NCBI GenBank assembly: GCA_965214705.1
Contig: CBDCCI010000002.1
Coordinates: 1,696,001 to 1,760,000, forward strand
Origin: Alphaproteobacteria bacterium
GTDB taxonomy: Bacteria > Pseudomonadota > Alphaproteobacteria > UBA828
Length of the DNA stretch: 64,000 nt
Direction of reading: 5' to 3'
Within the stretch, counting starts at the first letter, position 1, and each line of letters starts with the position of its first letter. A program made the translations under genes and the position numbers. Of this stretch, positions 1 to 36,543 are shown in pieces. The notes beneath the pieces are model-generated. The model did no database searches. It was given only the letters and a program-made list of their open reading frames with translations, and was not told the origin of the DNA.

Positions 1-389
1 AGCTCGTCCGGCGAGGCGTCGTAGTACCTGGCCAGGTTCTTGATCTCGCAGATGTAGGCCTTGGACGTGCTCGCGGCCAGATTGGCGATGCGGAGCTGCT
101 CCTCCATGCGCTGGCGAAGAGGGGTGACGGTGTTCGTGTCGCACGCGGTCCCGGTCATTATCGATCTCCCTGGATCGCGACGGCGCGCCGCCGGACCGAT
201 CCGGCGACGGTCCGTCGCAGGGGTCGATGCTAACCACTGGTGATCGGGAGGCTGCTGGGGATCCGCCACCCGACGGGCGGAGCGCCACTGACGCAACCGG
301 GAAGCGAACGCACAGAACAAACGGCACCCGCGACGCCTCGGAAATGAATGAACTCTACGCCGCTAACTCCGCGTAGCGGCTTCGTTCAA
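1..389 (-). mobile_element. Tyrosine recombinase + IS91-like element, copy 0 (left end only; runs off the window)
   Basis: Reverse complement of 6348-6736. Starts TTGAACGAAGCCGC at 389. Recombinase N-terminus runs from 158 to the window edge. Interrupts the serine recombinase. Confidence 0.95.
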
Positions 390-6331: not shown

Positions 6332-6578
6332 TGTCGTGGCTTGTTTCTTGAACGAAGCCGCTACGCGGAGTTAGCGGCGTAGAGTTCATTCATTTCCGAG
6401 GCGTCGCGGGTGCCGTTTGTTCTGTGCGTTCGCTTCCCGGTTGCGTCAGTGGCGCTCCGCCCGTCGGGTGGCGGATCCCCAGCAGCCTCCCGATCACCAG
6501 TGGTTAGCATCGACCCCTGCGACGGACCGTCGCCGGATCGGTCCGGCGGCGCGCCGTCGCGATCCAGGGAGATCGATA

Positions 6579-7457
6579 ATGACCGGGACCGCGTGCGACA
6601 CGAACACCGTCACCCCTCTTCGCCAGCGCATGGAGGAGCAGCTCCGCATCGCCAATCTGGCCGCGAGCACGTCCAAGGCCTACATCTGCGAGATCAAGAA
6701 CCTGGCCAGGTACTACGACGCCTCGCCGGACGAGCTCGACGCCGAGCAGGTGCGCCAGTGGTACCTGGGGCGGATCGACAAGGGGCTCAGTCCGGGCACG
6801 ACCAACGTCTCCTTCGCCGCGCTGAACTTCCTCTACATCGACACACTCGGCTGGCCTGACCATGTCGCCGGCCTGCGCTCCCGCAAGAAGCCCGGCAAGC
6901 TGCCGCGCTACATGTCGGAGCAGGAGGTCGAGCACCTCATCCTTGCGACACCCGACCTCCGCCACCGTGCTGCCATTGTCACCGGCTATGGCGGCGGGCT
7001 CCGCATCTCCGAGACCTTGGCCATCAAGGTCGGCGACATCCTGTCGGAGAAGAAGCTGCTGCACATCCCCTCCGGCAAAGGCGGCACCGAGAGAATGGCA
7101 CCGTTGCCGGACATCGTCATCCACTACTTGCGCGTCTACTACAGGAACATCTGGCCGCGTCCGACGAGCTGGCTCTTCTACGGCGTCTCGCTCGACAGGC
7201 CCATCGCAACGGAGACCTTGCAGGCCGCCTTCAGGAGGGCGCGCGACATTGCCGAGCTCGACCGCAGCTACACCTTCCATTGCCTGCGCCATTCGGCGGC
7301 GACCCATCTCCTCGAGCGCGGCGGCGATATCGAGGTGATCCGGGACATGCTCGGCCATCGAAGCGCGAACACGACCCGTCACTACGCCCGCGTCACCGGC
7401 AAGATGTTCGAGGGCCTCGACCACCCGATCTCAGGCTTCGCAGCGTTGCGCAACTGA
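6579..7457 (+). CDS. Tyrosine recombinase (N-terminal SAM-like domain + phage-integrase catalytic domain)
   Basis: GLRISE, SGKGG, HCLRHSAATHLLE, MLGH, TTRHY (R-K-H-R-H-Y). ATG preceded by AGGGAG. Confidence 0.95.
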   Translation: MTGTACDTNTVTPLRQRMEEQLRIANLAASTSKAYICEIKNLARYYDASPDELDAEQVRQWYLGRIDKGLSPGTTNVSFAALNFLYIDTLGWPDHVAGLRSRKKPGKLPRYMSEQEVEHLILATPDLRHRAAIVTGYGGGLRISETLAIKVGDILSEKKLLHIPSGKGGTERMAPLPDIVIHYLRVYYRNIWPRPTSWLFYGVSLDRPIATETLQAAFRRARDIAELDRSYTFHCLRHSAATHLLERGGDIEVIRDMLGHRSANTTRHYARVTGKMFEGLDHPISGFAALRN

Positions 7458-7463
7458 CGGCGC

Positions 7464-8705
7464 GTGGAGGCCGAACGCGCGGGCGTGGCGGAGATCTTCC
7501 GCCGCGCCGGCGCCGCTTTCCGTGAGCGCCACAAAGGGCGCATCGACGCCGCCCGGCTCAAGGTCATGGGCGCCATCGAGGCGTGCCGCACCGCCGTGCT
7601 CGGCGGCCACATGTACGCCTGCGAGGGCTGCGGGCGCGAGCATCCGCTCTTCAACTCCTGCCGCAACCGCCACTGCCCCACCTGCCAGGGTCTCGCCGCC
7701 AACCTCTGGAGCGAGGAGCGCGCCGGGGACATCCTGCCGGTGCCCTACTTCCATGTGGTCTTCACCCTGCCCAAGGAGGTTGCCGCCATTGCCTTCTGCA
7801 ACCGCAGGGTGGTGTTCGACATCCTCTTCCGGGCCGTCGCCGAGACCCTGCGCACCATCGCCGCCGATCCCCGCCACGGCGGCATGCGCATCGGCGGCAC
7901 CGCGGTCCTCCATACCTGGGATCAGAAGCTCCGCTTCCACCCGCACCTGCACGTGGTCGTGCCCAACGCGGGCTTCGACGTAGACAGTGGCGAGTGGAAG
8001 ACGGGGAGCACCACCTTCCTCGCCCCCGTCAAGGTCCTCGGCAGCCTGTTCCGCCGCCTCTTCCTCGAGGAGCTCGCCCGCGCCCACGGCCGGGGGGACC
8101 TGGAGTTCCACGGCACCCTCGCCCACCTCGCCAATCCCGGCGAGTTCCACGCCACGCTTGCCGCCGCCCGGGCCAGGGACTGGGTGGTCTACGCCAAGCG
8201 GCCCTTCCGCGGGCCTGAGCAGGTCTTCCGGTACCTCTCGCACTACACGCACAGGATCGCCATCTCCGACAGCCGCATCGTCTCCTTCGACGGCGAGACG
8301 GTCTCCTTCCGCCACCGAAAGCCCAAGGCGCCGGGGCAGAGAAAGCCGCGCTACGGCATCGCCACCGTGAGCGCCGACGAGTTCATCCGCCGCTTCCTGA
8401 GGCACGTCCTGCCGGACGGCATGCACCGCATTCGCTACTTCGGCATCCTCGCCAACGGCTGCCGCGCCAGCACGCTGGAGAGAGCACGCCAGGCTCTCGG
8501 CGCCCTCGGCTGCGCCGCCCCCGAGGGAAGCGTGGACGGCGCTCGGGCCGAGCCCGACGAAGAGCCCGAGATCGGCACCGCGCCCGTGGCCTGCCCCCAC
8601 TGCGGCGGCGTCATGCGCCTCGTCCGCGAAATCCGCCGCCGCCATGAGCCCCGCTCGACGCGCGGCCCGCCGGCGCTGCCGCCGACCCACAGGGGGAAAC
8701 CGTGA
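7464..8705 (+). CDS. IS91-family Y2/HUH transposase
   Basis: Zn-binding CEGC..NSCRNRHCPTC, YFHVVFTLP, HUH motif HPHLH, YLSHY (YxxxY), HRIRYFG, C-terminal CPHC. Confidence 0.95.
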   Translation: MEAERAGVAEIFRRAGAAFRERHKGRIDAARLKVMGAIEACRTAVLGGHMYACEGCGREHPLFNSCRNRHCPTCQGLAANLWSEERAGDILPVPYFHVVFTLPKEVAAIAFCNRRVVFDILFRAVAETLRTIAADPRHGGMRIGGTAVLHTWDQKLRFHPHLHVVVPNAGFDVDSGEWKTGSTTFLAPVKVLGSLFRRLFLEELARAHGRGDLEFHGTLAHLANPGEFHATLAAARARDWVVYAKRPFRGPEQVFRYLSHYTHRIAISDSRIVSFDGETVSFRHRKPKAPGQRKPRYGIATVSADEFIRRFLRHVLPDGMHRIRYFGILANGCRASTLERARQALGALGCAAPEGSVDGARAEPDEEPEIGTAPVACPHCGGVMRLVREIRRRHEPRSTRGPPALPPTHRGKP

Positions 8706-9055
8706 GACGCCCGCTCGCTTCGGCCCCGCGCAACGGCGCCAAAGCGCCGACGCACGACCGAACCTGTCTCCGCTTGAGCCGGGCTGACAGCCCTCGGCTC
8801 ACACCCCGCTCAGTCCTCGCAGCGTGCGCCCGCATGCCTGCCGAAAGACCGGCGCGAGCGTCGATTTTATGCGCAACTCTGCTGCCGGTGGATGCCGCCT
8901 GACGCTGACATCAGCGCACTTTCCACATAGCTCAACTTCGCCTCTCGTGGCCCGCGGCTTCGTTCAAAAGGGTTGGGCAGGCTCTCGAGAGAGAGCCTGC
9001 CCAACCCTTAACCTTGTGGCTTATGGGTTGTTTCGCGATGGATGTTCTTTTGGTC

Positions 9056-15170: not shown

Positions 15171-16716
15171 GCTCCCCTCCCGCCGGTTGCGGCGGGACGA
15201 TAACACGAAGCGCGCTCGGCAGGCGCTTGCGACCTTTGCTCCAAGAGCGCGATGCGCTGTCATACAGTCGCAAGGGAGACGAAGCCGTTCTGTCTGGCTG
15301 CTCAACCACCCGGACCATGGTGCGATGCACGGCGATCGCAGCTCGCGCCAGCATCGTGTCATGGAACGCAAGATCGAAGGGGGTGCGGTGCATGAACGCA
15401 GGAAAAGCGGGTGCTTGCTTCTCACACGGATGTCCAGCGAGGGTCATGATCTCCGCAAAATAGAAATTTGCAAAACGAACCCAATTTGGCGTAACGCCTT
15501 GTTTTGTAATGAAATAAGTGATTCCAAGTGAGATTACGCCCCACTTGGAGCCACTGATCGAGTTGCATGCCGCGACTGAGGGGAGAAATCCGGGCTAGCC
15601 CGACCTATTCATGGAGAGCCTTGCACATGAGGCTCGGCTGAGGGGTCGCGTCGTGGCCTGACGCGGTTTGGCGCCGGGATCTGAGGATGGGTCGCTATTG
15701 GGTTGAGGGTTGAACGAGCCTGGGTTGTCGGGGCACATCGCCCCGGCGCTCAGGGGCCTGCTGCGGCGAGGCGGCCTGCGAGCAGTCGGAAGAGAGCGGC
15801 GTCCGGGCAGGCCGAGGCGAAGTGGATGCGGACGCGGGTGGCCTTCTCGATGACGCGGGCGCCGATCTTGAGGAGGCGCAGCCTGAGGGTTGCAAACTCG
15901 GCGCGGGCGAGCGGCGCTGTGCGGGGAATGGCGTCGCGGAGCGCGAGCATCAGCCAGTAGGCTGCGGTGTGGAGCACCAGCCTGAGCTGGTTGGCGAGCG
16001 GGCTCTGGCAGGAGGTGCGGTCCGAGGCGAGCTGGCCCTTGTGCATCTTGATCAGGTTTTCGGCCTGGCCGCGGGCGCAGTAGATGTCTTCGTAGAGGTG
16101 GCGGGGCTCGCCCTTGAGCGAGGTGACGACATAGCGGGCATCGAAGCCGCGCGTCGTCGCCTCCAGCCGAGCCACGACCCGGCGTTCGCGGCTCCAGGAG
16201 CGGGCGGCATAGGCGAAGGCGGCGAAGCTGCGCATCCTGTCCGCGCCGGCCTCGGCGCGGCGGACCTTGAGATCGTCGGCCACCTCGTAGGCCAAGGCGT
16301 TGAGCGCGCGGTTGCCCGCGAGGCCGAAGATGTAGTCGACGCCGTTCTGCTCGCACCAGGCCATGGCTTGCGCGCGGCCATAGTGGCTGTCTCCCCGGAA
16401 GACGATCCGAGTGTGCGGCCAGTGGCGGCGGATGCGGCGGACCAGGTGCTTGATGAGGGTGCGGACCTCGATCCCCGAGGGCGTCTTGAACGAAGCCGCT
16501 ACGCGGAGTTAGCGGCGTAGAGTTCATTCATTTCCGAGGCGTCGCGGGTGCCGTTTGTTCTGTGCGTTCGCTTCCCGGTTGCGTCAGTGGCGCTCCGCCC
16601 GTCGGGTGGCGGATCCCCAGCAGCCTCCCGATCACCAGTGGTTAGCATCGACCCCTGCGACGGACCGTCGCCGGATCGGTCCGGCGGCGCGCCGTCGCGA
16701 TCCAGGGAGATCGATA

Positions 16717-17595
16717 ATGACCGGGACCGCGTGCGACACGAACACCGTCACCCCTCTTCGCCAGCGCATGGAGGAGCAGCTCCGCATCGCCAATCTGGCC
16801 GCGAGCACGTCCAAGGCCTACATCTGCGAGATCAAGAACCTGGCCAGGTACTACGACGCCTCGCCGGACGAGCTCGACGCCGAGCAGGTGCGCCAGTGGT
16901 ACCTGGGGCGGATCGACAAGGGGCTCAGTCCGGGCACGACCAACGTCTCCTTCGCCGCGCTGAACTTCCTCTACATCGACACACTCGGCTGGCCTGACCA
17001 TGTCGCCGGCCTGCGCTCCCGCAAGAAGCCCGGCAAGCTGCCGCGCTACATGTCGGAGCAGGAGGTCGAGCACCTCATCCTTGCGACACCCGACCTCCGC
17101 CACCGTGCTGCCATTGTCACCGGCTATGGCGGCGGGCTCCGCATCTCCGAGACCTTGGCCATCAAGGTCGGCGACATCCTGTCGGAGAAGAAGCTGCTGC
17201 ACATCCCCTCCGGCAAAGGCGGCACCGAGAGAATGGCACCGTTGCCGGACATCGTCATCCACTACTTGCGCGTCTACTACAGGAACATCTGGCCGCGTCC
17301 GACGAGCTGGCTCTTCTACGGCGTCTCGCTCGACAGGCCCATCGCAACGGAGACCTTGCAGGCCGCCTTCAGGAGGGCGCGCGACATTGCCGAGCTCGAC
17401 CGCAGCTACACCTTCCATTGCCTGCGCCATTCGGCGGCGACCCATCTCCTCGAGCGCGGCGGCGATATCGAGGTGATCCGGGACATGCTCGGCCATCGAA
17501 GCGCGAACACGACCCGTCACTACGCCCGCGTCACCGGCAAGATGTTCGAGGGCCTCGACCACCCGATCTCAGGCTTCGCAGCGTTGCGCAACTGA
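16717..17595 (+). CDS. Tyrosine recombinase (copy 2)
   Basis: Same protein as 6579-7457. Confidence 0.95.
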   Translation: MTGTACDTNTVTPLRQRMEEQLRIANLAASTSKAYICEIKNLARYYDASPDELDAEQVRQWYLGRIDKGLSPGTTNVSFAALNFLYIDTLGWPDHVAGLRSRKKPGKLPRYMSEQEVEHLILATPDLRHRAAIVTGYGGGLRISETLAIKVGDILSEKKLLHIPSGKGGTERMAPLPDIVIHYLRVYYRNIWPRPTSWLFYGVSLDRPIATETLQAAFRRARDIAELDRSYTFHCLRHSAATHLLERGGDIEVIRDMLGHRSANTTRHYARVTGKMFEGLDHPISGFAALRN

Positions 17596-17898
17596 CGGCG
17601 CGTGGAGGCCGAACGCGCGGGCGTGGCGGAGATCTTCCGCCGCGCCGGCGCCGCTTTCCGTGAGCGCCACAAAGGGCGCATCGACGCCGCCCGGCTCAAG
17701 GTCATGGGCGCCATCGAGGCGTGCCGCACCGCCGTGCTCGGCGGCCACATGTACGCCTGCGAGGGCTGCGGGCGCGAGCATCCGCTCTTCAGATACCATG
17801 AGCACGGTGGCACCGAATCGATTCTGGCGGTTAGACAAGCTCGGAGAGAAGGCCAGCACCTTCTCTCCGAGCGGAATCGTCAACAACGGAGTGGACGG

Positions 17899-19095
17899 AT
17901 GTCGGATGGTCCAGACACGACCGCGCTGACAGGCGCAAGTAGTAGCACGATTTATGTCGCGGTGGAGATCAGCCTCAAATCGTGGATCGTTGGCGTGCAT
18001 TGCCCGGATGCCTCGGGTGGCAGCATCAGCATCCACACACTGGCTGCTGCCGACACGGCGGGACTGTTGGATCTCGTCGGGTCGGTGCGGGAACGGGTGG
18101 CGAGGGAGCTCGGCGCCCGTCCTCGGGTGATGCTGACCTACGAGGCGGGCTACGAGGGGTTCTGGCTTGCCCGCGATATCGAGCGCCGTGACGCGGAGAT
18201 CGATATCTTCATGAACGATCCGGCGAGCCTGCGGGTGAACCGGCGCGCCAAGAAGAAAAAGACCGACCGTATCGACGCGAGGAGGATGGTTCGGGCTCTG
18301 AAGGCATGGGACCAAGGCGATTCGGAGGCCATGTCCTGGGTGCGCGTGCCCGATGTGGACCAGGAGGATGCCAAGCGCCTGCTGCGCGAGAGGGACACGC
18401 TGATCAGCGAGCGTACCCGCGTCAACAACCGGATCAAAGGGCTCTTGCAGTTGCACGGCATCTTCGATCTGGCGCCGCGCAAGCCGGACTTCCTCGAACG
18501 CCTCGCGACCGCGCGGACGGGCTATGGGGCGCCGTTGCCGCCGCGTGCGCGGGCAGAGATTGAGAGGGCGGTGGGGATGCTTCGCCTGGTTGAGGAGCAT
18601 ATCGAGATGATCGAGGCCGAGAAGAGGGCCCTGCTGAAGGCTGGCCGGAAAGCCCAGGACGCGACCAATCGTGACGGGACGGCGATGATCGCGGCGCTTA
18701 CGCGCATCCATGGCATCGGCCTCAATGACGCCACACTGCTGGCTGGCGAGGTGTTCTATCGGGACTTCCGCAATCGCCGGGAGTTGGGCAGCTGGGCCGG
18801 GTTGACGTCGGTGCCGTGGGCGAGCGGAGATGTCGACCACGATCTTGGCATCAGCAAGGCCGGCCCCTCGCATGTCAGGAAGCACATGATCCAGATGGCT
18901 TGGCGCTGGCTGAAGCTGCAACCGGAAAGCGCGATCACGAAGTGGTTCCACGCCTACGTCGCCAGGGATGCCGGTGGCGGGAGGGACCGGCGAGCGAGGA
19001 AGCGGGCGATCGTGGGGGTCGCGCGCAAGCTGCTGATCGCGCTGTGGCGCTATGCCACCCAAGGACTGGTGCCTGAGGGCGCCATCGTCTCCTGA
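17899..19095 (+). CDS. IS110-family recombinase/transposase
   Basis: YVAVEIS, YEAG, KTDRIDA, IHGIG, WAGLTSVPWASG, GISKAG, AIVGVARKLLIALWR. Confidence 0.92.
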   Translation: MSDGPDTTALTGASSSTIYVAVEISLKSWIVGVHCPDASGGSISIHTLAAADTAGLLDLVGSVRERVARELGARPRVMLTYEAGYEGFWLARDIERRDAEIDIFMNDPASLRVNRRAKKKKTDRIDARRMVRALKAWDQGDSEAMSWVRVPDVDQEDAKRLLRERDTLISERTRVNNRIKGLLQLHGIFDLAPRKPDFLERLATARTGYGAPLPPRARAEIERAVGMLRLVEEHIEMIEAEKRALLKAGRKAQDATNRDGTAMIAALTRIHGIGLNDATLLAGEVFYRDFRNRRELGSWAGLTSVPWASGDVDHDLGISKAGPSHVRKHMIQMAWRWLKLQPESAITKWFHAYVARDAGGGRDRRARKRAIVGVARKLLIALWRYATQGLVPEGAIVS

Positions 19096-19217
19096 GGGCA
19101 CCGGCCGAACGAACGGGAAAATACAGGGTAAGCGGTATCGGGCCCCCATACTTCCAGCGGATCTGATTTCGGGGCTGACTCTCCGCCTTGACCACGAGCC
19201 ACACAGGAGAGATCGCG

Positions 19218-19643
19218 ATGACAGATTCGATTTTGGCATCTGGCGACGGTGTCGCTGTTGCTTCGGTTGAGATCCCAGCTTCTGAGGGAGCCGCCCCGGC
19301 TCCGTCTGAGCCGGCCCCCATGCGACGCTGGCCGGACGATGAGAAGGCGCGGATTGTCTCGGAGAGCTTTGAGCCGGGCTCTTCGGTTGCGGCGGTCGCG
19401 CGCCGCCATGGCGTCAGCGATACGACCCTGACCAAGTGGCGGCGGCGCGCGCGGGAGGGAACTCTTCCGGGCGCTCGGATTGGTGGCTCTGCACCGCCAT
19501 TTGTTCCCGTGGTGGTTGATAGCGTGACGTCCGAGCGGACGGTGGCGATCGAGGCGCTAGGCGTGGTCGTTCGCCTTCCGGTGGAGAGCGCGGTCGATCG
19601 GATTGTTGCGGTGGCCTCGGGCCTGGGCCGGGCGTCGTCATGA
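19218..19643 (+). CDS. tnpA: IS66 TnpA (HTH)
   Basis: RRWPDDEKARIVSESFEPGSSVAAVARRHGV. Confidence 0.9.
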   Translation: MTDSILASGDGVAVASVEIPASEGAAPAPSEPAPMRRWPDDEKARIVSESFEPGSSVAAVARRHGVSDTTLTKWRRRAREGTLPGARIGGSAPPFVPVVVDSVTSERTVAIEALGVVVRLPVESAVDRIVAVASGLGRASS

Positions 19644-19990
19644 TCGCGGCCCCCTCGCTTCGCATCGTGTTGGCGACGCGGCCGGTTGATTTTCGTCGCG
19701 GCCACGACGCGCTTGCGGCGACGGCGGCGGGGGAGCTGGACCTCGATATCTATTCCGGGGTGATCGTGATCTTCCGCTCGCGCCGCGGCGACAGGCTCAA
19801 GCTCCTTGCGTGGGACGGCAGCGGTCTGGTGATGACCTACAAGCGTCTGGAGCAGGGCCGCTTCGCCTGGCCTCGGATCGAGGATGGTGTGATGCGCCTT
19901 ACGAAGGGCCAGTTCGAGGCCCTCTTCGAGGGTCTGGACTGGCGCCGGGTGAAGGCCCGCCCGGTTCGCCGCCCGCTGGCGGCGGAGTGA
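19640..19990 (+). CDS. tnpB: IS66 accessory protein TnpB
   Basis: PVDFRRG..RRGDRLKLLAWDGSGL..KRLEQGRFAWP. Confidence 0.93.
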   Translation: MIAAPSLRIVLATRPVDFRRGHDALAATAAGELDLDIYSGVIVIFRSRRGDRLKLLAWDGSGLVMTYKRLEQGRFAWPRIEDGVMRLTKGQFEALFEGLDWRRVKARPVRRPLAAE

Positions 19991-20083
19991 GGCGGCACGC
20001 AGGCGGGGCCGCAGATTTCGGTCGCGGTCCCGCCTGCACTTTTCCCTGGTCATGCATTGGCGAATCGGATTAAGGGGTGGCCC

Positions 20084-21799
20084 ATGCCGAAGGTCACGCC
20101 CTCACCCCTCAGCAGCGCCGGTTCGCCGTCGCCTGCGGTGGTTTCGGCGGCGCTGGCGGCCCTGCATGCGGAGCTTGACGACGAGCGCGCGGCGCGCCGG
20201 GCGACGGAAGCAGCCCTATGCGAAGCGGAGCAGGCACGCGGCGCGGCGGAGGCGGCGAGGCAGACGGCGGAAGCGCGGGCGGCACGGCTGGAGGCCGAGA
20301 ACGCGCAGAGCGCGGAGCAGATCAGCCGGCTTGAGCATCTCAACAAGGAGCTCAGGAAGGCGCTGTTCGGTCCGCGCTCCGAGAAGCTCGGCGAGGACGA
20401 GCGCCAGCTTACGTTCGAGGAGTTTTGGGCGGCGATCGCTGAAGCCGGCGGTCGGCCCGAGGCAGATGACCAGGAGCAGGACGAGGGGGCTGGCGGCAAG
20501 CGCCGGCGGCGCTCTTCCCGGGGGTCGCGCAGCGGGGTGCGCTTCGGGCCCCAGGTCGACCGGCGCGAGGAGGTGATCGAGCCGGACACGATCATGTGCC
20601 CCTGCGGCTGCGGCGAGATGACGAAGATCGGCGAGGACCGCAGCGAGCGGCTGGACTATGAGCCGGCGAAGTTCACCGTCATCGAGACCGTGCGCCCCCG
20701 CTACGCCTGCAACAAGTGCAAGGGGGGCGGGGTGGTGCAGTCGCCGGCGCCGGCCGCTCTGGTCGAGGGCGGCCTTCCCACCGAGGCTCTTCTGGCGCAG
20801 GTGCTGATCGCGAAGTACGGCGATCATTGCCCGCTCTATCGCCAGTCGCAGATCTACGAGCGCTCGGGGATCGAGGTTCACCGTGCGACGCTGGCGACGT
20901 GGGTGGGCCAGGCGTCGTTTCACCTGCGCCCCGTGGTCGCTTGCCTGGAGGATGAGCTGAAGAAGTCGGATCACCTGGGTCTGGACGAGACCACGATCCG
21001 CGTTCTCGACCCGGGCCGGGGCAAGACGAAGACGGGCTACATGTGGACCCTTGTGCGTGACGAGCGCCACTGGAGCGGCACGGACCCGCCGGGCGTCGTC
21101 TATCGCTATGCGCCCGGCCGCGGCGGCAAGTATGGCGCCGAGCTTATGGAGGGCTTTTCGGGGACGGTGCAGCTCGACGGCTACTCGGGCCACAACATCC
21201 TGGCGCGGCCGGACCGGGCGGAAGGCCCTGTGACGCGGGCCCTCTGTTGGGCGCATGTAAGACGGAAGCTGAAAGAGGTATACGACTCGAGCGCATCGCC
21301 GATCGCGCTGGCCGGTCTGAATCGGATCGCGAAGCTCTATGCGATCGAGAAGAAGATCCGGGGCAAGCCGCCGGCGGAGCGCCGCGCGATCCGTTGGGAG
21401 GAGTCGGCGCCGATCGTGAACACCTTCGGTGTCTGGCTCGACGAGCAGCGCTCGCGCGTCTCACCGCGCTCGCGTCTCGGCGAGAAGCTGACCTATATCG
21501 CCAACCAGTGGGACGGGCTGCTGGAGTTCCTGCACGACGGTCGTGTCGAGATCGACTCGAACCTGGTGGAAAACCGAATCCGGCCGCTGAAGCTCACCGC
21601 CAAGAACGCGCTCTTCGCCGGCAACGACGAGGGTGCGCAAGCCTGGGCCCGCATCGCCTCGCTGATCGAGACCTGCAAGATGAACGGCGTCGAGCCCTAC
21701 GCCTGGATGCGGAGCACGCTCGAGAAGATCGCCAAGGGCCACCCGCAGTCGGGCATCCAGGAGCTTCTGCCGTGGAACTTCCAGCCCGAGGCAAAATGA
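20084..21799 (+). CDS. tnpC: IS66 transposase TnpC
   Basis: Leucine zipper, FGPRSEK, CPCGC, LDETT, LDGY, CWAHVRRK, IDSNLVENRIRP. Confidence 0.95.
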   Translation: MPKVTPSPLSSAGSPSPAVVSAALAALHAELDDERAARRATEAALCEAEQARGAAEAARQTAEARAARLEAENAQSAEQISRLEHLNKELRKALFGPRSEKLGEDERQLTFEEFWAAIAEAGGRPEADDQEQDEGAGGKRRRRSSRGSRSGVRFGPQVDRREEVIEPDTIMCPCGCGEMTKIGEDRSERLDYEPAKFTVIETVRPRYACNKCKGGGVVQSPAPAALVEGGLPTEALLAQVLIAKYGDHCPLYRQSQIYERSGIEVHRATLATWVGQASFHLRPVVACLEDELKKSDHLGLDETTIRVLDPGRGKTKTGYMWTLVRDERHWSGTDPPGVVYRYAPGRGGKYGAELMEGFSGTVQLDGYSGHNILARPDRAEGPVTRALCWAHVRRKLKEVYDSSASPIALAGLNRIAKLYAIEKKIRGKPPAERRAIRWEESAPIVNTFGVWLDEQRSRVSPRSRLGEKLTYIANQWDGLLEFLHDGRVEIDSNLVENRIRPLKLTAKNALFAGNDEGAQAWARIASLIETCKMNGVEPYAWMRSTLEKIAKGHPQSGIQELLPWNFQPEAK

Positions 21800-21887
21800 C
21801 TCGCGCGCTCACGGCGCTCCTCAAGAAATCCCCGTCGTAGTCAAGCCAGATTCCGGTATGGGGTCTGCGTACCGCTTACAATACAGG

Positions 21888-22200
21888 AGGTTCCGACGTG
21901 GTCGGACGCGGCCGCGGAGGATGCCGGGCAAGGCGTGTGACCGGGCAAGAGTTGGGTCGCCGCTTGGCACCGTTCTACAGATGGGTCCCGCCTCCCGGAA
22001 CGTCACCACCGCTTGGATGCGGTATTGGGGTCACGGAGCCGGCAAGCGCCGGAGTTCCGAACCGGATAAGAGCTGAGCAGCGTGGCGGATCGCTGCGTGG
22101 AAACGACGTTCTGCCTGGACATCGGCCGCGGATTCGAGTGGAGAGATTGCGAATGCCATTGACGTAGATGAAGCCGGGCCTTGCGGAGAGAGCTCATAAG
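21888..22200 (+). ncRNA. Putative bridge/seekRNA of the IS1111-type element
   Basis: ~310-bp non-coding right end with four short segments matching target and donor junction halves (see findings). Boundaries approximate. Confidence 0.65.
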
Positions 22201-23882
22201 AACTCCTGCCGCAACCGCCACTGCCCCACCTGCCAGGGTCTCGCCGCCAACCTCTGGAGCGAGGAGCGCGCCGGGGACATCCTGCCGGTGCCCTACTTCC
22301 ATGTGGTCTTCACCCTGCCCAAGGAGGTTGCCGCCATTGCCTTCTGCAACCGCAGGGTGGTGTTCGACATCCTCTTCCGGGCCGTCGCCGAGACCCTGCG
22401 CACCATCGCCGCCGATCCCCGCCACGGCGGCATGCGCATCGGCGGCACCGCGGTCCTCCATACCTGGGATCAGAAGCTCCGCTTCCACCCGCACCTGCAC
22501 GTGGTCGTGCCCAACGCGGGCTTCGACGTAGACAGTGGCGAGTGGAAGACGGGGAGCACCACCTTCCTCGCCCCCGTCAAGGTCCTCGGCAGCCTGTTCC
22601 GCCGCCTCTTCCTCGAGGAGCTCGCCCGCGCCCACGGCCGGGGGGACCTGGAGTTCCACGGCACCCTCGCCCACCTCGCCAATCCCGGCGAGTTCCACGC
22701 CACGCTTGCCGCCGCCCGGGCCAGGGACTGGGTGGTCTACGCCAAGCGGCCCTTCCGCGGGCCTGAGCAGGTCTTCCGGTACCTCTCGCACTACACGCAC
22801 AGGATCGCCATCTCCGACAGCCGCATCGTCTCCTTCGACGGCGAGACGGTCTCCTTCCGCCACCGAAAGCCCAAGGCGCCGGGGCAGAGAAAGCCGCGCT
22901 ACGGCATCGCCACCGTGAGCGCCGACGAGTTCATCCGCCGCTTCCTGAGGCACGTCCTGCCGGACGGCATGCACCGCATTCGCTACTTCGGCATCCTCGC
23001 CAACGGCTGCCGCGCCAGCACGCTGGAGAGAGCACGCCAGGCTCTCGGCGCCCTCGGCTGCGCCGCCCCCGAGGGAAGCGTGGACGGCGCTCGGGCCGAG
23101 CCCGACGAAGAGCCCGAGATCGGCACCGCGCCCGTGGCCTGCCCCCACTGCGGCGGCGTCATGCGCCTCGTCCGCGAAATCCGCCGCCGCCATGAGCCCC
23201 GCTCGACGCGCGGCCCGCCGGCGCTGCCGCCGACCCACAGGGGGAAACCGTGAGACGCCCGCTCGCTTCGGCCCCGCGCAACGGCGCCAAAGCGCCGACG
23301 CACGACCGAACCTGTCTCCGCTTGAGCCGGGCTGACAGCCCTCGGCTCACACCCCGCTCAGTCCTCGCAGCGTGCGCCCGCATGCCTGCCGAAAGACCGG
23401 CGCGAGCGTCGATTTTATGCGCAACTCTGCTGCCGGTGGATGCCGCCTGACGCTGACATCAGCGCACTTTCCACATAGCTCAACTTCGCCTCTCGTGGCC
23501 CGCGGCTTCGTTCAAAAGGGTTGGGCAGGCTCTCGAGAGAGAGCCTGCCCAACCCTTAACCTTGCCGGGGCGCAGGAGGACCGCCACCGGCTTGCCGCTT
23601 TCCACGTGATAGACGTGGATGGGGAGGAAGCAGCGGGTGTCGTAATGAGCGTTGAACGAAGCCGCTACGCGGAGTTAGCGGCGTAGAGTTCATTCATTTC
23701 CGAGGCGTCGCGGGTGCCGTTTGTTCTGTGCGTTCGCTTCCCGGTTGCGTCAGTGGCGCTCCGCCCGTCGGGTGGCGGATCCCCAGCAGCCTCCCGATCA
23801 CCAGTGGTTAGCATCGACCCCTGCGACGGACCGTCGCCGGATCGGTCCGGCGGCGCGCCGTCGCGATCCAGGGAGATCGATA

Positions 23883-24761
23883 ATGACCGGGACCGCGTGC
23901 GACACGAACACCGTCACCCCTCTTCGCCAGCGCATGGAGGAGCAGCTCCGCATCGCCAATCTGGCCGCGAGCACGTCCAAGGCCTACATCTGCGAGATCA
24001 AGAACCTGGCCAGGTACTACGACGCCTCGCCGGACGAGCTCGACGCCGAGCAGGTGCGCCAGTGGTACCTGGGGCGGATCGACAAGGGGCTCAGTCCGGG
24101 CACGACCAACGTCTCCTTCGCCGCGCTGAACTTCCTCTACATCGACACACTCGGCTGGCCTGACCATGTCGCCGGCCTGCGCTCCCGCAAGAAGCCCGGC
24201 AAGCTGCCGCGCTACATGTCGGAGCAGGAGGTCGAGCACCTCATCCTTGCGACACCCGACCTCCGCCACCGTGCTGCCATTGTCACCGGCTATGGCGGCG
24301 GGCTCCGCATCTCCGAGACCTTGGCCATCAAGGTCGGCGACATCCTGTCGGAGAAGAAGCTGCTGCACATCCCCTCCGGCAAAGGCGGCACCGAGAGAAT
24401 GGCACCGTTGCCGGACATCGTCATCCACTACTTGCGCGTCTACTACAGGAACATCTGGCCGCGTCCGACGAGCTGGCTCTTCTACGGCGTCTCGCTCGAC
24501 AGGCCCATCGCAACGGAGACCTTGCAGGCCGCCTTCAGGAGGGCGCGCGACATTGCCGAGCTCGACCGCAGCTACACCTTCCATTGCCTGCGCCATTCGG
24601 CGGCGACCCATCTCCTCGAGCGCGGCGGCGATATCGAGGTGATCCGGGACATGCTCGGCCATCGAAGCGCGAACACGACCCGTCACTACGCCCGCGTCAC
24701 CGGCAAGATGTTCGAGGGCCTCGACCACCCGATCTCAGGCTTCGCAGCGTTGCGCAACTGA
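23883..24761 (+). CDS. Tyrosine recombinase (copy 3)
   Basis: Same protein as 6579-7457. Confidence 0.95.
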   Translation: MTGTACDTNTVTPLRQRMEEQLRIANLAASTSKAYICEIKNLARYYDASPDELDAEQVRQWYLGRIDKGLSPGTTNVSFAALNFLYIDTLGWPDHVAGLRSRKKPGKLPRYMSEQEVEHLILATPDLRHRAAIVTGYGGGLRISETLAIKVGDILSEKKLLHIPSGKGGTERMAPLPDIVIHYLRVYYRNIWPRPTSWLFYGVSLDRPIATETLQAAFRRARDIAELDRSYTFHCLRHSAATHLLERGGDIEVIRDMLGHRSANTTRHYARVTGKMFEGLDHPISGFAALRN

Positions 24762-25502
24762 CGGCGCGTGGAGGCCGAACGCGCGGGCGTGGCGGAGATC
24801 TTCCGCCGCGCCGGCGCCGCTTTCCGTGAGCGCCACAAAGGGCGCATCGACGCCGCCCGGCTCAAGGTCATGGGCGCCATCGAGGCGTGCCGCACCGCCG
24901 TGCTCGGCGGCCACATGTACGCCTGCGAGGGCTGCGGGCGCGAGCATCCGCTCTTCAACTCCTGCCGCAACCGCCACTGCCCCACCTGCCAGGGTCTCGC
25001 CGCCAACCTCTGGAGCGAGGAGCGCGCCGGGGACATCCTGCCGGTGCCCTACTTCCATGTGGTCTTCACCCTGCCCAAGGAGGTTGCCGCCATTGCCTTC
25101 TGCAACCGCAGGGTGGTGTGGTCCTAAACTTGATATTATTGGGGTACGTCAGGTAGTGGAGTGGGTCGTTTTCTCTCCTGCATATGTGTTACATTACAGG
25201 TGATTGGTTCGTTTCGCAAGAGGATTGTGGCGGCTCTTATCTGATATAAAATTTTGTGCCGTGAACCGATCAGTTGCATTTTGGGAAGTGAAGGCGTATG
25301 TCAGGAGCGGTGAGTCTGTCATTGCGGAGACACGCACGATGGATATTCGTGCTTGTAGAGGGTATAAGGCGGTGGGTATTCGTGACGTATGCGGATGGGC
25401 GGTTCGTAACTGTTTTATATGGTGTTATGCAGGTGGTTTCGGCACGAACGCGGGTCCTTCGAGGTTTGTCACGCAGTATTGCACCGTCCCCGGGGTGCCC
25501 TC

Positions 25503-25812
25503 ATGAGCCGCCGGCCGGTGGAGCGCCGCAAACAGCACGCGGTAATGGCGACGGCGAGCGAGTGGGTGCGAATCCGCGAACTCGCGGCCGACGCAGGCAT
25601 GGATCTCTCGCGCTACATCGTGCACAGGGCGAGCGCGCCGGACCCGCTGCCGGATAGCGTTCTGCGCCGCGCGGTGCGCGAGCTTCTGCTGCTCGCGAAG
25701 ATCGAGCAGCAGCGTATGGCCGACATGGGGCTGGAGGAGCGCTGGAAGGCGCTCGGCGATGCCGTCGACGCGTGGCTCGACCGCGAGGCGGAGCTCGACC
25801 GGCTGATCGATC
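25503..25812 (+). pseudogene. Small ribbon-helix-helix (MobC-like) protein, cut by IS66
   Basis: RRKQHAVMATASEWVRIRELAADAGMDLSRYIVHRA; paralogue at 37124. Confidence 0.6.
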
Positions 25813-28227: not shown

Positions 28228-28521
28228 TCCGTAATGGGGCGGTTGATGTCAAGCACCGATCTTCACAACGTTCCGGCCTGGCACGGCCATTCGAACATGG
28301 GGCACCGTCGCCTGCGGTTGGGCCTCTCGCAGGCATGGTCAACATGATCGACACAGGTGGTTGCCTTGGCGGCTTCCGTAATGGGGCGGTTGATGTCAAG
28401 CACCGATCTTCACAACGTTCCGGCCTGGCACGGCCATTCGAACATGGGGCACCGTCGCCTGCGGTTGGGCCTCTCGCAGGCATGGTCACCATGATAGACA
28501 CAGGTGGTTGCCTTGGCGGCT
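28222..28521. repeat. 147-bp tandem duplication (2 units, 2 SNPs) of an IS110 right end
   Basis: Units start at 28222 and 28369; a partial third GCGGCT at 28516. Confidence 0.92.
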
Positions 28522-28982
28522 AACGGGCTCGTCGACGCGGCACGGTGAAGGAAGCGGGACCCCCGGATATGTCCCCGTCGCCAGGCTCTCGCTTCCGTCC
28601 GTGGTCAGCGCAGAGCGGCTGCCAACTTCATGCCTGGTGCAAGACGATTCCCGAGTGCCGATCTGGTGTGCGTGCTCGAACGCCAAGAGGCGATTCGGCA
28701 ACAGCCGCTAGCACGTGCATCATCGGGAACCGCGTCCCGGCGAGGGGATAGCGGTGGATCGCCACCTTCAGGCGCGGCTCTTTCCTCCTCTCGCTGCTGA
28801 TTGCCGGTGGGATGCAGCCGCGCCTATGCCGTCTGGAGCGCCATCGCCTCCTCGCGCGTGAAGCGGAACTCGGTGCCGTCCCGCCACATCCGGTGAAGTA
28901 CCACGCCGATGCGCCGGGCCAAGGCGACGGTCGCCCGCTTCTTGCCGCGGAGCTTCGCCAGACGCAGCGTCCAGGCCTTCAG
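28226..28982 (-). pseudogene. IS110/IS1111-type remnant: transposase C-terminus (28982->28824) plus long right non-coding end
   Basis: LKAWTLRLAKLRGKKRATVALARRIGVVLHRMWRDGTEF; terminal CTTGACATCAACCGCCCCATTACGGAAG. Confidence 0.82.
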
Positions 28983-29012
28983 ATCCTATGGGGCCGACTC
29001 GGAGACCGGCAC

Positions 29013-31201: not shown

Positions 31202-32373
31202 GGGTCATCGCCTCCCTCGACCCCGAGCAGATCGAGGCGGCGCTGCAACGCTTCTCGATGCCGAGACTGAACCTTGGCCGCGCGATCGCGCTCGACGGAG
31301 AGCGCATTCGCGGCGCCAACCGCAACGGCGAGGGCCACCACGAGACCGCGACCCTGGTCGACCACGCAACCGGCGCGCCGCTCGCAAGCCTCGCCTTCAA
31401 CGACGCAGGCGGCGAGATCGCGGCCGTGTGCGCGCTGCTCGACGAGGTTCCCGTCGAAGGCCGCGTGATCACCATCGACGCGCTCCACACCAAGCCCGTT
31501 TCAAGATCTTCACACCAAGCCCGTTTCAAGATCTTCACACCACCCGCGACACCACCCGCGACACCACCCGCGACACCGCGCGCACCATCAAGGAAACCCA
31601 CGGCGCCGACTATCTCATGACGGTCAAGGAAAACGCGCCCGAGACCTGCGAGACCCTCGCCTCCATCGACTGGGAGCGCGACGCGAGCGGACACTTCGAG
31701 GAAGATGTCGCCAAGGCCCATGGCCGCATCGAGCAACGCCGCATCGAGACCCTGACCCCGCTTCCAGGCCTGATCAACTATCCTCATGTCGCGCAGATCT
31801 TCCGTGTCACCCGCAAGCGCACCGACGCACGGCGCAACGGCACAGGCGAGACCAGCATCGAGCACGCCTACGGCATCACCTCGGTGCCGGCAGAGCGCGC
31901 CTCGCCTCAGGACCTTCTCGCCTGGAACCGCGGCCACTGGTCGGTCGAGGTCAACCACCACGTCAGGGACAAGCTCTTCGCCGAGGACGCCTGCCTCGCG
32001 CGCACCGGCTTCGCGCCCGAGAACAACGCGCTCTGCACCAACATCGCGATCGCGCTCATCATCCACAAAACCGACTTCGACAGCGTCGCCTCGGCAACCC
32101 GCCACTTCGCGCTCCAGCGCGAGGACGCCTTCGCCGCGATCCTTTCCCCCTGAGCGCCACCACGCCGTCCGATCCGGACGGCAGACAATGGCGGTGTGCA
32201 ACCTCGTCACCGCTCAGCTGTCAGCACTGACGTTCATTGCGGCCAAGCCAACGTCTCGCCCGAACCGAGAGCCGTGAGCCTGCGAATCGGGCTATCGCGC
32301 GGGAGCCGCAACACCCGAAATCGCCCGAACGCGGCCCAGATCGTCCGCATTTGGGGAGCGTGGGATAGTCCTG
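31202..32373 (+). pseudogene. Second ISAs1-family transposase, 5'-truncated, with micro-tandem insertions
   Basis: IALDGERIRG, ITIDALHT, VKEN, HGRIEQR, RGHWSVE; right end GTGGGATAGTCCTG. Confidence 0.85.
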
Positions 32374-32629: not shown

Positions 32630-32692
32630 AATACTCCTACTCGCCATCTCCATGCTCCATGTGGAGTTCCTTCGACCCTGGAGACAAGCTCA

Positions 32693-33979: not shown

Positions 33980-34113
33980 TGCTGTTGTACGTCGCGGCGT
34001 AGCTATTCGCGAAGAGGCTTCTCCCTTTGATTCCAGTTACGAAAGATGTTGGGGGCAGTTTGCGAATGGGGTGGACGAGGCGCGGGGCTCTTGGTCCTGG
34101 CAAGGCGCCGTCA

Positions 34114-36528: not shown

Positions 36529-36543
36529 CAATCGAAACGGTGT

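What the first reader, a model, noticed from the sequence alone, without database searches (positions are those of the whole stretch)
6348..9013. HUH transposase + tyrosine recombinase element whose joined ends form a bulged hairpin that may guide target choice
Seen: the element starts TTGAACGAAGCCGC. Its perfect 14-bp complement (8954-8967) sits directly before a perfect 19-bp hairpin (8968-9009), followed by terminal AACC. Joining the right end to the left end gives a 33-bp hairpin with a single 4-nt AACC bulge at the junction. Empty sites rebuilt from the flanks are TTTC|TTGTGG, CGTC|TTGCCG, AGCG|TTGAAC, GGTC|TTCCGT and GCCTT|GAAACC. There is no duplication, and each target mimics the left tip, so it could pair with the subterminal ..GTTCAA. 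Established: IS91 moves by ssDNA rolling circle, IS608 picks targets by pairing with a guide at a hairpin foot, integron integrases act on folded ssDNA with extrahelical bases, and IS91-like elements with an upstream recombinase are catalogued. To my knowledge the role of that recombinase is unresolved. Inference: a two-enzyme ssDNA system with DNA-guided, possibly reprogrammable targeting, in which the recombinase may act on the folded junction.
Basis: partly seen in the sequence, partly recalled or inferred. Interest (0 to 1): 0.82.

Follow-up and report, generated by a model that had tools for sequence, protein, structure and literature searches.

The report
IS91-type insertion sequence carrying a recombinase

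Summary
Window 6348-9013 is a 2666-bp element with the left tip TTGAACGAAGCCGC. Its perfect complement lies at 8954-8967, followed by a 19-bp-stem hairpin and a terminal AACC. It encodes a tyrosine recombinase and an IS91-family Y2 HUH transposase in one tight operon.

The genome holds 94 left and 92 right ends. Of 28 informative paralogous empty sites, 20 show clean insertion with no duplication.

The target is essentially TT (T at +1 in 68 of 82 sites, at +2 in 79 of 82), with a weak G..CG pattern. Positions +4 and +5 show no complementarity to the proposed guide. Relatives with the same GTTCAA sequence choose TTCC or TTATG instead. So guided, reprogrammable targeting is unsupported beyond the TT.

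Target resemblance to the left (terIS) tip is already a known IS91-family trait. What does hold is that the left tip and the right subterminal repeat covary, and the joined ends fold into a long interrupted hairpin in most relatives resolved. The one natural tandem junction has been converted into a perfect palindrome.

The recombinase keeps its catalytic residues in 25 of 25 homologues. Its role remains open.

Verdict: a new member of a catalogued kind and a good experimental system, with moderate interest.

The parts
6348..9013 (+). Complete 2666-bp copy of the element (family A)
   Evidence: Ends fixed by 94 left and 92 right ends in the genome and by paralogous empty sites.
6348..6361 (+). 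Left tip TTGAACGAAGCCGC, the terIS-side repeat, complementary to 8954-8967
   Evidence: Covaries with the right subterminal repeat in relatives.
6349..6388 (+). Subterminal imperfect palindrome of the left end (TGAAC...GTTCA with an inner GCCGCTA/TAGCGGC stem)
   Evidence: DNA fold. This matches the description of terIS in PMC13181058 (passages).
6579..7457 (+). Tyrosine recombinase gene (292 aa; R142 K167 H234 R237 H260 Y269)
   Evidence: Pfam Phage_integrase 4.4e-33 and Phage_int_SAM_4 4.8e-12. NCBIfam Xer and integron-integrase models all score below their cut-offs.
7464..8705 (+). IS91-family Y2 HUH transposase gene (413 aa; H159-P-H161, Y257 and Y261, zinc-binding cysteines)
   Evidence: Pfam Y2_Tnp 2.7e-54 and Zn_Tnp_IS91 4.3e-30. 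NCBIfam transpos_IS91 scores 382.5 bits against a cut-off of 125.
8954..8967 (+).
8968..9009 (+). Perfect hairpin, 19-bp arms with loop GAGA (oriIS-side palindrome)
   Evidence: The loop is flipped to TCTC in 6 of the 86 copies that have repeat + hairpin + AACC.
9010..9013 (+). Terminal AACC, the bulge of the joined-end fold and part of the family-wide tail motif CCCTnAAnn
9014..9020 (+). Target sequence TTGTGGC immediately 3' of this copy
16486..23561 (+). Second copy, interrupted at element position 1306 by a 4409-bp insert (window 17792-22200) holding IS110-family and IS66-family transposase domains
   Evidence: Its empty site is confirmed at 100% identity in 4 paralogous places.
23652..47193 (+). 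Third copy, split by about 20.8 kb of inserted DNA at element positions 1456-1468
   Evidence: C3 1719652-1721119 and 1741983-1743193.
47959..50624 (+). Fourth copy, complete
56243..58908 (+). Fifth copy, complete, with a 2.09-kb unrelated IS inserted in its terminal CTTAAC (58909-60998)
1..389 (-). Left 389 bp of a further copy that runs off the window start
   Evidence: C3 1696389-1693724.

Best explanation
The element is an insertion sequence of the IS91 family, of the subgroup that carries a tyrosine recombinase gene just upstream of the transposase gene. It most likely moves as IS91 does. This pathway is inferred from the family, not shown here. The Y2 HUH transposase nicks the bottom strand at the right end, next to the hairpin and the conserved tail. 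The strand is peeled off by replication and cut again at the left tip (...GTTCAA-3' on that strand). The two ends are joined into a single-stranded circle, which is pasted without duplication just 5' of a TT in the target. The target looks like the left tip because the same nuclease must cut the left tip, the joined ends and the target, not because a programmable DNA guide reads it. The complementary left tip and right subterminal repeat, together with the hairpin, let the joined ends fold into one long interrupted hairpin that places the joint at the edge of an unpaired bulge. This fold is a conserved recognition structure. The recombinase is a working enzyme that has travelled with the transposase for a long time. 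Its most likely job is to process the joined-end or tandem junction, for example resolving head-to-tail multimers or improving termination, as the unrelated Orf121 of IS91 does. This last step is unproven.
For: Identity. The transposase matches NCBIfam transpos_IS91 at 382.5 bits (cut-off 125) and Pfam Y2_Tnp plus Zn_Tnp_IS91. HPH and YxxxY are invariant in 21 of 21 aligned homologues.

No duplication and exact ends. 20 of 28 informative empty sites are exact.

Oriented insertion 5' of a short target. T is at +1 in 68 of 82 sites and at +2 in 79 of 82.

Family traits read in passages of PMC13181058 and of PMC10288648. There is no target duplication. The target is a tetranucleotide with T at its second position. 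The terIS cleavage tetranucleotide equals the target in IS801 and IS1294. Both ends carry subterminal palindromes. Circles have terIS-oriIS junctions. The bottom-strand single-stranded circle is the functional form. An upstream ORF improves termination accuracy. IS91 inserts 5' of its target.

Conserved architecture. The left tip ..GAACGAA(G/C)CCGC, its complement, a hairpin of unrelated sequence and a tail CCCTnAAnn occur in relatives down to 46% transposase identity. The joined ends fold with z of -3.5 or lower in 23 of 25 resolved cases. The two exceptions are L051 (z -0.3) and L002, where the left tip was mis-picked.

Compensatory changes keep the left tip paired with the right repeat. Position 8 is G.C, A.T or C.G.

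In vivo folding. The only tandem junction in the genome has GGTT added opposite the AACC bulge and a flipped loop, giving a perfect 37-bp palindrome.

Recombinase. RKHRHY is kept in 25 of 25 homologues down to 31% identity. The gap between the recombinase stop and the transposase start is 4-13 nt in 20 of 21 loci.

Activity. There are 61 copies of exactly 2666 bp at 97.9% identity or more, most at 99.8% or more. None of 18 same-genus genomes searched has a copy above 81% identity.
Against: No circle, nick or strand was observed. The only sequencing data served were assembled contigs, which showed no joints.

The target (TT, then weak G..CG) is not the canonical GTTC or CTTG of IS91, IS801 and IS1294. 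The cut lies 2 nt outside the family's GTTC motif.

Eight of 28 empty sites show small anomalies confined to the first 1-3 nt of the right flank: TC or GT read as TT after insertion, a swapped first base, +TT and +T. A simple single-cut model does not explain these.

Sites that match the left tip fully (TTGAAC) are enriched, 4 of 41 TTG sites against 1.4% genome-wide. A guide model would also predict this.

Nothing here shows what the recombinase does. No relative lacking the recombinase was found among the 80 loci, so whether it is dispensable is untested (withdrew two apparent cases).
Confidence: 0.62

Rival explanations
1. Integron-like two-enzyme system. The HUH transposase only makes the single-stranded circle. 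The joined ends fold into an attC-like site (paired repeats, unpaired bases, upper stem). The Xer/IntI-like recombinase inserts the circle by a single strand exchange at N|TT, and replication resolves the product.
For: A bioRxiv preprint (10.1101/542381, passage read) places the recombinases of IS91 elements in the 'integron-like' subgroup, as the closest homologues of IntI. The left tip TTGAAC fits the integron core TTRRRY, and the crossover lies just 5' of the TT, the position I recall for G|TTRRRY in integrons (recalled, not from a call). The catalytic hexad is conserved in 25 of 25 homologues. The fold with an unpaired bulge next to the joint recurs across the family. The functional IS91 intermediate is a bottom-strand single-stranded circle (PMC13181058). 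Targets resemble the junction on both sides of the crossover: -1 is C or T in 76 of 93 sites where the junction has CC, and subgroup I has GGA|TT where its junction has AGA|TT.
Against: The protein scores below the cut-off of every integron-integrase model, and its match is split in two, which is consistent with the IntI-specific insertion being absent. The preprint says the same. The published version (PMC8138268, searched) no longer mentions IS91. The base 5' of the crossover is G in only 3 of 93 sites. One subgroup has no TT at the tip or in the target. IS91, IS801 and IS1294 transpose without any recombinase (PMC13181058). In one event at a true left tip of another family member, the crossover fell after the dinucleotide, at the family's GTTC cut.
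Confidence: 0.13
2. The subterminal GTTCAA at the hairpin foot base-pairs with the target, as the guide does in IS608, so changing it would retarget the element.
For: Positions +1, +2, +3, +6 and +7 of the target logo all agree with the left tip. Mean matches at +3 to +14 are 4.49 against 3.34 at random TT sites (z 5.9). TTGAAC makes up 4 of 41 TTG sites against 1.4% expected. Members with ..CAA at the end of the repeat have TT targets, and the subgroup whose tip starts at GAAC does not.
Against: There is no enrichment of A at +4 (11 of 82) or +5 (19 of 82), and none at +8 to +14, so contiguous pairing is not seen. With the same GTTCAA and the same tip, subgroup I uses TTCC: +3 is C in 13 of 15 contexts, against G in 44 of 82 here. 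Family C uses TTATG. Close relatives with the same tip show no C at +6 or G at +7. The cut is not held in one register relative to the motif: 4 of 13 non-TT targets have TT just 5' of the insertion point. The transposase is a Y2 IS91-type enzyme, not the Y1 enzyme of IS608.
Confidence: 0.1
3. The recombinase is a passenger or a purely regulatory DNA-binding protein with no strand-exchange role, and the fold of the joined ends is an incidental result of having terminal inverted repeats next to a palindrome.
For: IS91-family members work without it. Orf121 of IS91, which is not a recombinase, already provides the accuracy function (PMC13181058). Inverted repeats covary in any transposon whose ends are bound by one protein.
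Against: All six catalytic residues are kept in 25 of 25 homologues over a divergence down to 31% identity, and the operon spacing is kept. In a single-strand pathway the two repeats are complementary rather than identical on the transferred strand, so one single-strand-binding site cannot explain their covariation. The tandem junction was corrected to a perfect palindrome, which needs fold-back pairing.
Confidence: 0.12

Closest known systems
IS91, IS801 and IS1294 (IS91 family, rolling-circle HUH insertion sequences)
   Same: Y2 HUH transposase with an N-terminal zinc domain. No target duplication. Oriented insertion 5' of a short target with T at its second position. A left (terIS) tip that resembles the target and contains GAAC (GTTC on the transferred strand). 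Subterminal palindromes at both ends. An accessory ORF directly upstream of the transposase gene.
   Different: The upstream ORF is a full tyrosine recombinase rather than the small Orf121. The target is TT(G..CG), not GTTC or CTTG. The left tip carries two extra bases (TT) outside GAAC. A 14-bp left-tip repeat abuts a perfect 19-bp hairpin.
IS91-family members listed in ISfinder with an upstream phage-integrase-like gene (I recall ISAzo26, ISMno23, ISSde12, ISShvi3 and ISWz1; the names are recalled, and only ISShvi3 and ISWz1 appeared in search listings or passages)
   Same: The same two-gene layout. The preprint 10.1101/542381 notes tyrosine recombinases in IS91 elements and groups them with integron integrases.
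   Different: No close nucleotide relative was found in 72,556 plasmid records or in 18 congeneric genomes. My six literature searches found no functional study of the recombinase or of the ends.
IS608 and the IS200/IS605 family
   Same: Single-strand HUH transposition, subterminal hairpins, no duplication, and a short target that resembles an element-end cleavage site.
   Different: IS608 has a Y1 enzyme, inserts 3' of its target, and reads the target with a 4-nt guide by base pairing. Here the enzyme is Y2, insertion is 5' of the target, and pairing with the proposed guide is not supported beyond TT.
Integron attC x attI recombination by IntI
   Same: A Xer/IntI-like recombinase, a folded single-strand site made of paired repeats with unpaired bases, a crossover just 5' of TT, and a tip that fits TTRRRY.
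   Different: No IntI-specific insertion. C or T rather than G lies before the crossover. A 4-nt bulge replaces single extrahelical bases. An HUH transposase is present. No cassette array.
Helitrons
   Same: A Y2 Rep-type transposase, a hairpin a few bases from one end, insertion at a dinucleotide (AT or TT) without duplication (PMC10288648, passage), and occasional fuzzy ends.
   Different: Helitrons are eukaryotic, have a fused helicase and have no recombinase. Their hairpin marks the terminating end.

Membership tests
IS91 family | Transposase of the Y2 HUH type with the IS91 zinc-binding N-terminus | tested here: met
   NCBIfam NF033538 scores 382.5 bits against a cut-off of 125. Pfam Y2_Tnp and Zn_Tnp_IS91 match. 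HPH and YxxxY are invariant in 21 of 21 homologues.
IS91 family | No target-site duplication | tested here: met
   20 of 28 informative empty sites are exact. The other 8 differ by 1-3 nt at the right junction and none shows a duplication of flanking DNA.
IS91 family | Oriented insertion next to a specific tetranucleotide (GTTC, CTTG or GTCC) | tested here: inconclusive
   Insertion is oriented and lies 5' of the target, but the motif is TT(G..CG). C|TTG spans the insertion point in about half of the sites.
IS91 family | Distinct oriIS and terIS ends with subterminal palindromes, and a terIS tip that resembles the target | tested here: met
   Right-end hairpin plus a conserved tail, a left-end imperfect palindrome, and a tip TTGAAC against a target TTG..C.
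IS91 family | Single- and double-stranded circles with a terIS-oriIS junction; one-ended transposition | not testable with these tools
   Only assembled contigs were served and they showed no joints. One tandem junction exists in this genome and one in a Bradyrhizobium relative.
Integron integrase (IntI) | Score above the curated cut-off of the integron-integrase models, including the extra helices in the catalytic domain | tested here: not met
   TIGR02249 scores 130.2 bits against a cut-off of 265, in two stretches. NF011946 scores 74.6 against 435.
Integron integrase (IntI) | Substrate is a folded single strand with R''/R' boxes (RYYYAAC / GTTRRRY) and extrahelical bases | tested here: inconclusive
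   GTTCAA/TTGAAC fit the boxes apart from the outer base, and a 4-nt bulge is present. The consensus is recalled and binding was not tested.
XerC/XerD chromosome dimer resolvases | Score above the equivalog cut-offs | tested here: not met
   XerC scores 134.4 against 335, XerD 118 against 330 and archaeal XerA 143.6 against 220. The gene sits inside a mobile element.
IS200/IS605 (IS608-type guided targeting) | Y1 HUH TnpA | tested here: not met
   The transposase has two conserved tyrosines and matches the IS91 models.
IS200/IS605 (IS608-type guided targeting) | Target and cleavage sites complementary to a guide at the hairpin foot, covarying among relatives | tested here: not met
   There is no signal at +4 or +5. 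Relatives with the same GTTCAA have different targets.

The most novel reading that the evidence does not exclude
The element is a two-enzyme single-strand system. The HUH transposase peels off a bottom-strand circle. Its joined ends fold into an attC-like bulged hairpin. The integron-related tyrosine recombinase then inserts the circle at N|TT by a single strand exchange. Under this reading the two enzymes cut on either side of the TT, which would explain the 2-nt zone of ambiguity. That would make these elements a living link between rolling-circle transposons and integron cassette recombination.
Probability: 0.12. Interest if true: 0.85.

Novelty: new member of a known kind. Interest (0 to 1): 0.45.

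Why it matters
IS91-family elements and their ISCR relatives move adjacent genes, including resistance genes, yet their end recognition and target choice are still poorly understood. The recombinase carried by one subgroup has no assigned function.

This genome offers an unusually rich natural data set. It has about 90 near-identical copies with exact ends, 82 distinct insertion sites and 28 informative empty sites. It also holds two diverged sister families, a tandem junction whose bulge was corrected into a perfect palindrome, and copies with a flipped hairpin loop.

The data give a clear and cheap set of experiments: tyrosine mutants of each enzyme, compensatory mutations of the tip and repeat, and bottom-strand junction oligonucleotides. 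These would settle whether the recombinase resolves, terminates or integrates.

The data also remove one attractive but unsupported idea, programmable DNA-guided targeting.

Tried and rejected
Circle junction by read mining. The look-up of sequencing runs listed 20 runs holding the stretch or part of it, 18 of them with at least half of the element's sampled words, from 12 studies. All 20 are kept as Logan contigs. The 4 runs laid showed contig breaks at 6348 and at 9013 or 9015, and no joints. Contigs cannot show circles, so this counts neither for nor against.

Orientation relative to replication. A first count seemed to show 66 of 94 copies lying against the local GC skew. After masking the element, whose own skew is -0.11, the split was 47/47, 53/41, 47/47, 49/45 and 49/45 at five window sizes. 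The first count was an artefact and is rejected.

Recombinase-transposase complex. Complex prediction with 21-row alignments of both proteins returned 'no answer' (score 0.00, mark 0.32). This is not evidence either way.

Relatives without the recombinase. L052/L058 and L071/L074 first looked like mobile derivatives lacking it. tblastn showed that one copy of each pair is simply truncated, so the claim is withdrawn.

Guide extension pairing with the left flank. In subgroup I the TCC between GTTCAA and the hairpin is complementary to the GGA left of the element. However, the right-end tail AGA supplies the same bases, and a tandem junction (AGA|TTGAAC, L098) shows that GGA is target sequence that mimics the tail. 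In subgroup II only a CA/TG match recurs, with no locus-by-locus covariation on inspection. In close relatives the spacer is not complementary to the flank.

Loose motif pairing. 76 of 83 sources gave a left/right pair, but about a dozen combinations with 9 or fewer of 12 matches are probably chance picks of the 3-mismatch search. The covariation claim rests on the well-paired combinations.

In one search, 5 of 25 recombinase ORFs were wrong-frame picks (11-15% identity). They were re-extracted.

Named close relative. The plasmid collection gave only 6 weak partial matches.

Papers. PMC43276 (Mendiola 1994) is not held.
Full report
**1. What is in the sequence**

- TTGAACGAAGCCGC begins at 6348.
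- Its reverse complement lies at 8954-8967.
- 8968-9009 is a hairpin with two perfect 19-nt arms and a GAGA loop.
- AACC ends the element at 9013.

Two genes lie between the ends, 6 nt apart.
- 6579-7457 encodes a 292-aa tyrosine recombinase (Pfam Phage_integrase 4.4e-33, Phage_int_SAM_4 4.8e-12).
- 7464-8705 encodes a 413-aa transposase (Pfam Y2_Tnp 2.7e-54, Zn_Tnp_IS91 4.3e-30; NCBIfam transpos_IS91 382.5 bits against a cut-off of 125).

The window holds five copies plus the tip of a sixth.

**2. Copy number, ends and empty sites**

The window's genome has 3 contigs, 7.92 Mb and 67% G+C.
- It gave 160 blastn matches to the element.
- 94 left ends and 92 right ends are at 95% identity or more.
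- After pairing ends, 61 copies are exactly 2666 bp, 9 are 4316 bp and 3 are 7076 bp.

Many copies sit inside other repeated sequences, so uninterrupted paralogues serve as empty sites.
- 30 elements had such a hit. Two of these are self-hits at a tandem.
- Of the other 28, 20 are exact at the junction with nothing gained or lost. Eleven of those are 100% identical over 160 bp, representing 10 distinct sites.

The element is therefore TTGAAC...AACC and makes no target duplication. GGTC|TTCCGT needs removal of a 2.09-kb unrelated IS that inserted into the element's terminal CTTAAC.

**3. The target**

There were 84 unique right flanks. Two were dropped because they are ends of that unrelated IS, which left 82.

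| Position | Preferred base | Sites of 82 | Information (bits) |
|---|---|---|---|
| +1 | T | 68 | 1.57 |
| +2 | T | 79 | 2.37 |
| +3 | G | 44 | 0.22 |
| +6 | C | 60 | 0.51 |
| +7 | G | 48 | 0.19 |

- Positions +4 and +5 show no preference for the A of the left tip (11 and 19 of 82).
- Positions +8 to +14 are at background.
- On the left flank, -1 is C in 47 sites, T in 29, A in 14 and G in 3, of 93.
- TT sites match the left tip at +3 to +14 slightly more than random TT sites do (4.49 against 3.34, z 5.9).
- Full TTGAAC occurs in 4 of 41 TTG sites against 1.4% genome-wide. Two of those four are left tips of IS91-like elements themselves.

'The target mimics the left tip' is therefore true for TT, weakly true for G3, C6 and G7, and untrue for the middle of the proposed pairing.

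**4. A 2-nt zone of ambiguity**

Eight of the 28 empty sites differ from a clean insertion only in the first 1-3 nt of the right flank. Five of these were re-examined against all their empty copies:
- TC in the target reads TT after insertion (4 of 4 empty copies have TC).
- GT reads TT (1 of 1).
- One target, the left tip CTGAAC of a sister element, gave a left tip CTGAAC and a right flank TTGAAC (1 of 1).
- One site has an extra TT (36 of 36 empty copies lack it).
- One site has an extra T (2 of 2).

The other three rest on paralogues only 85-87% identical and are weaker.

Two further observations fit here.
- Four of 94 copies have left tips AT, CT, CT or TA instead of TT.
- Of the 13 non-TT targets with a usable left flank, 4 have TT immediately 5' of the insertion point.

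Two readings fit: cuts on either side of the TT, or a 2-nt heteroduplex repaired in either direction. Neither is shown.

**5. Relatives**

The genome holds two sister families with the same two-gene layout.
- Family B has about 80% transposase identity. It has the same left tip, the same GTTCAA, an imperfect hairpin and the tail CCCTAAAGA. Its flanks are TTT, TTG and TTG.
- Family C has 40% transposase identity. Its left tip is (TT/CT/AT)GAACTGAGCCGC. Its right end is GCGGCTCAGCTCAA, one base, a 13-bp hairpin of unrelated sequence and the tail CAATTCA. Its flank is TTATGTT in 6 of 8 distinct right flanks, next to small palindromic repeats.

A scan of one genome per species found 541 relatives. 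The best 80 were fetched (46-78% identity). Copies within one genome fixed the ends of several members.

Three groups emerge.
- Close relatives have the tip TTGAAC..., GTTCAA plus a 1-3-nt spacer, a hairpin and the tail CTTAAGA. Their flank starts with TT.
- Subgroup I includes a Bradyrhizobium genome with 25 full-length matches and one tandem. It has the same tip and GTTCAATCC, and the tail CTCAAGA. TT is present in 15 of 15 distinct contexts, but +3 is C in 13 of 15.
- Subgroup II has the tip GAACGAACCCGC without TT and the tail CCCTCAACA. Its flank is AAnGCnGACA-like, again without TT.

The hairpin sequences are unrelated between groups. The tip, its complement and the tail motif CCCTnAAnn are conserved.

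**6. The fold of the joined ends**

- Joined in silico, the ends of this element give 33 bp with a 4-nt bulge (dG -42.9, z -13.1).
- The same kind of long interrupted hairpin appears in 13 of 13 members resolved and in 10 of 12. In the two exceptions (L051, L002) the left tip was mis-picked.
- The left tip and the right repeat keep their complementarity through double changes. Position 8 is G.C, A.T or C.G; position 10 is C.G or T.A; position 9 is C.G or G.C (using the well-paired combinations).
- On a pathway that handles one strand, the two repeats are complementary rather than identical on that strand. Their covariation therefore argues for pairing.
- The one tandem in the genome (C2 646570-646643) reads GTTCAA-GGTT-hairpin (loop TCTC)-AACC-TTGAAC. 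This is a perfect 37-bp palindrome (dG -52). It is the product expected if a fold-back copied the bulge onto the other arm.
- Of the 86 copies with repeat + hairpin + AACC, 79 have loop GAGA, 6 have the loop flipped to TCTC, and 1 is the tandem variant with GGTT.

**7. What is known**

Passages of PMC13181058 state the following for the IS91 family.
- It makes no duplication.
- Its targets are CTTG, GTTC or GTCC, with T at the second position.
- The terIS cleavage tetranucleotide of IS801 and IS1294 equals their target.
- Both ends have subterminal palindromes.
- Single- and double-stranded circles carry a terIS-oriIS junction.
- The bottom-strand single-stranded circle is the functional form.
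- The upstream Orf121 improves termination accuracy.

PMC10288648 (passage) says IS91 inserts 5' of its tetranucleotide. The preprint 10.1101/542381 (passage) says that tyrosine recombinases occur in IS91 elements, that they group with integron integrases, and that they lack the IntI insertion. The published version does not mention IS91.

Six searches found no functional study of this recombinase. That ISfinder lists such elements is my recollection.

**8. Weighing the models**

The guide model predicts contiguous complementarity and covariation between target and guide. Neither is seen. Only TT tracks the presence of ..CAA in the repeat, and that is a single contrast between subgroups.

A nuclease that must cut the left tip, the joined ends and the target explains the resemblance, and this is the established family pattern.

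The recombinase is clearly a working enzyme.
- RKHRHY is kept in 25 of 25 homologues down to 31% identity.
- Operon spacing of 4-13 nt is kept in 20 of 21 loci.

It is not an IntI, XerC or XerD by curated cut-offs. Its closest solved relatives are an XerC-like protein, XerD and IntI4.

The integron-like reading rests on several points. The tip fits TTRRRY, the crossover lies 5' of TT, there is a bulged fold, and the functional circle is the bottom strand. This reading is not excluded, and I put it at about 0.12.

**9. Verdict**

- The element is a new, highly expanded member of the catalogued integrase-bearing IS91 subgroup.
- None of 18 congeneric genomes searched holds it above 81% identity, and no plasmid record holds a close copy.
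- Interest is moderate. The programmable-guide idea falls. The data set makes the open question of the recombinase's role directly testable.

Noticed in passing
window 17792-22200 (inside the copy at 16486-23561); genome-wide at element position 1306: At least 17 family A copies and one family B copy are interrupted at exactly the same element coordinate, 1306, in the transposase zinc-domain region. The basic insert is about 1650 bp. In the window copy the insert is 4409 bp and carries IS110-family transposase domains (DEDD_Tnp_IS110, Transposase_20) with an IS66-family transposase (ORF at window 20057-21799) in the same insert. Recurrence in a family only about 85% identical suggests site-specific targeting of one IS by another.
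   Followed up: partly
window 58909-60998; 15 copies in the genome: A 2.09-kb IS with ends CGAACTTCC... inserts at TTAA(A/G/C)C-like sites. It has hit the terminal CTTAAC of the IS91-like element 8 times, which masks the true right flank of those copies.
   Followed up: partly
genome C2:646570-646643 (outside the window): Head-to-tail tandem of two copies. Its junction carries an extra GGTT opposite the AACC bulge and a flipped loop, making a perfect 37-bp palindrome. This may be why this tandem has persisted.
   Followed up: partly
genome C1:3505985-3506037 (outside the window): A solitary right-end hairpin with GGTT on one side and AACC on the other, lying directly 5' of the left tip of a family C element. 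It looks like the remains of two inverted right ends fused in the palindrome.
   Followed up: no
six copies, e.g. genome C1:325802-325843 and C3:1787574-1787615: The 4-nt hairpin loop is inverted (TCTC instead of GAGA) in 6 of the 86 copies with an intact right end. Whether this was one event or several was not examined.
   Followed up: partly
genome C1:1526490-1529090 and about 11 further places: A third int + tnpA family (40% transposase identity) sits next to short palindromic repeats of the type ATGTTGAGCTCAACAT. Family A has inserted directly 5' of its left tip at three places.
   Followed up: partly
window 23652-47193: One copy is split by about 20.8 kb of DNA at element positions 1456-1468, with 13 nt present on both sides. 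The nature of the insert was not examined.
   Followed up: no
whole genome: The genome is the largest of the 19 congeners compared (7.9 Mb against 2.8-6.3 Mb). It is crowded with several multi-copy ISs nested in one another, and its GC skew is weak and irregular.
   Followed up: no
L081-L104 (Bradyrhizobium genome G001): 25 full-length matches to a subgroup I element lie in only a handful of flank contexts that are themselves repeated (GAATC...GATTC-like). This points to very strict insertion into a small repeated palindromic element. One tandem there has a normal junction AGA|TTGAAC.
   Followed up: partly
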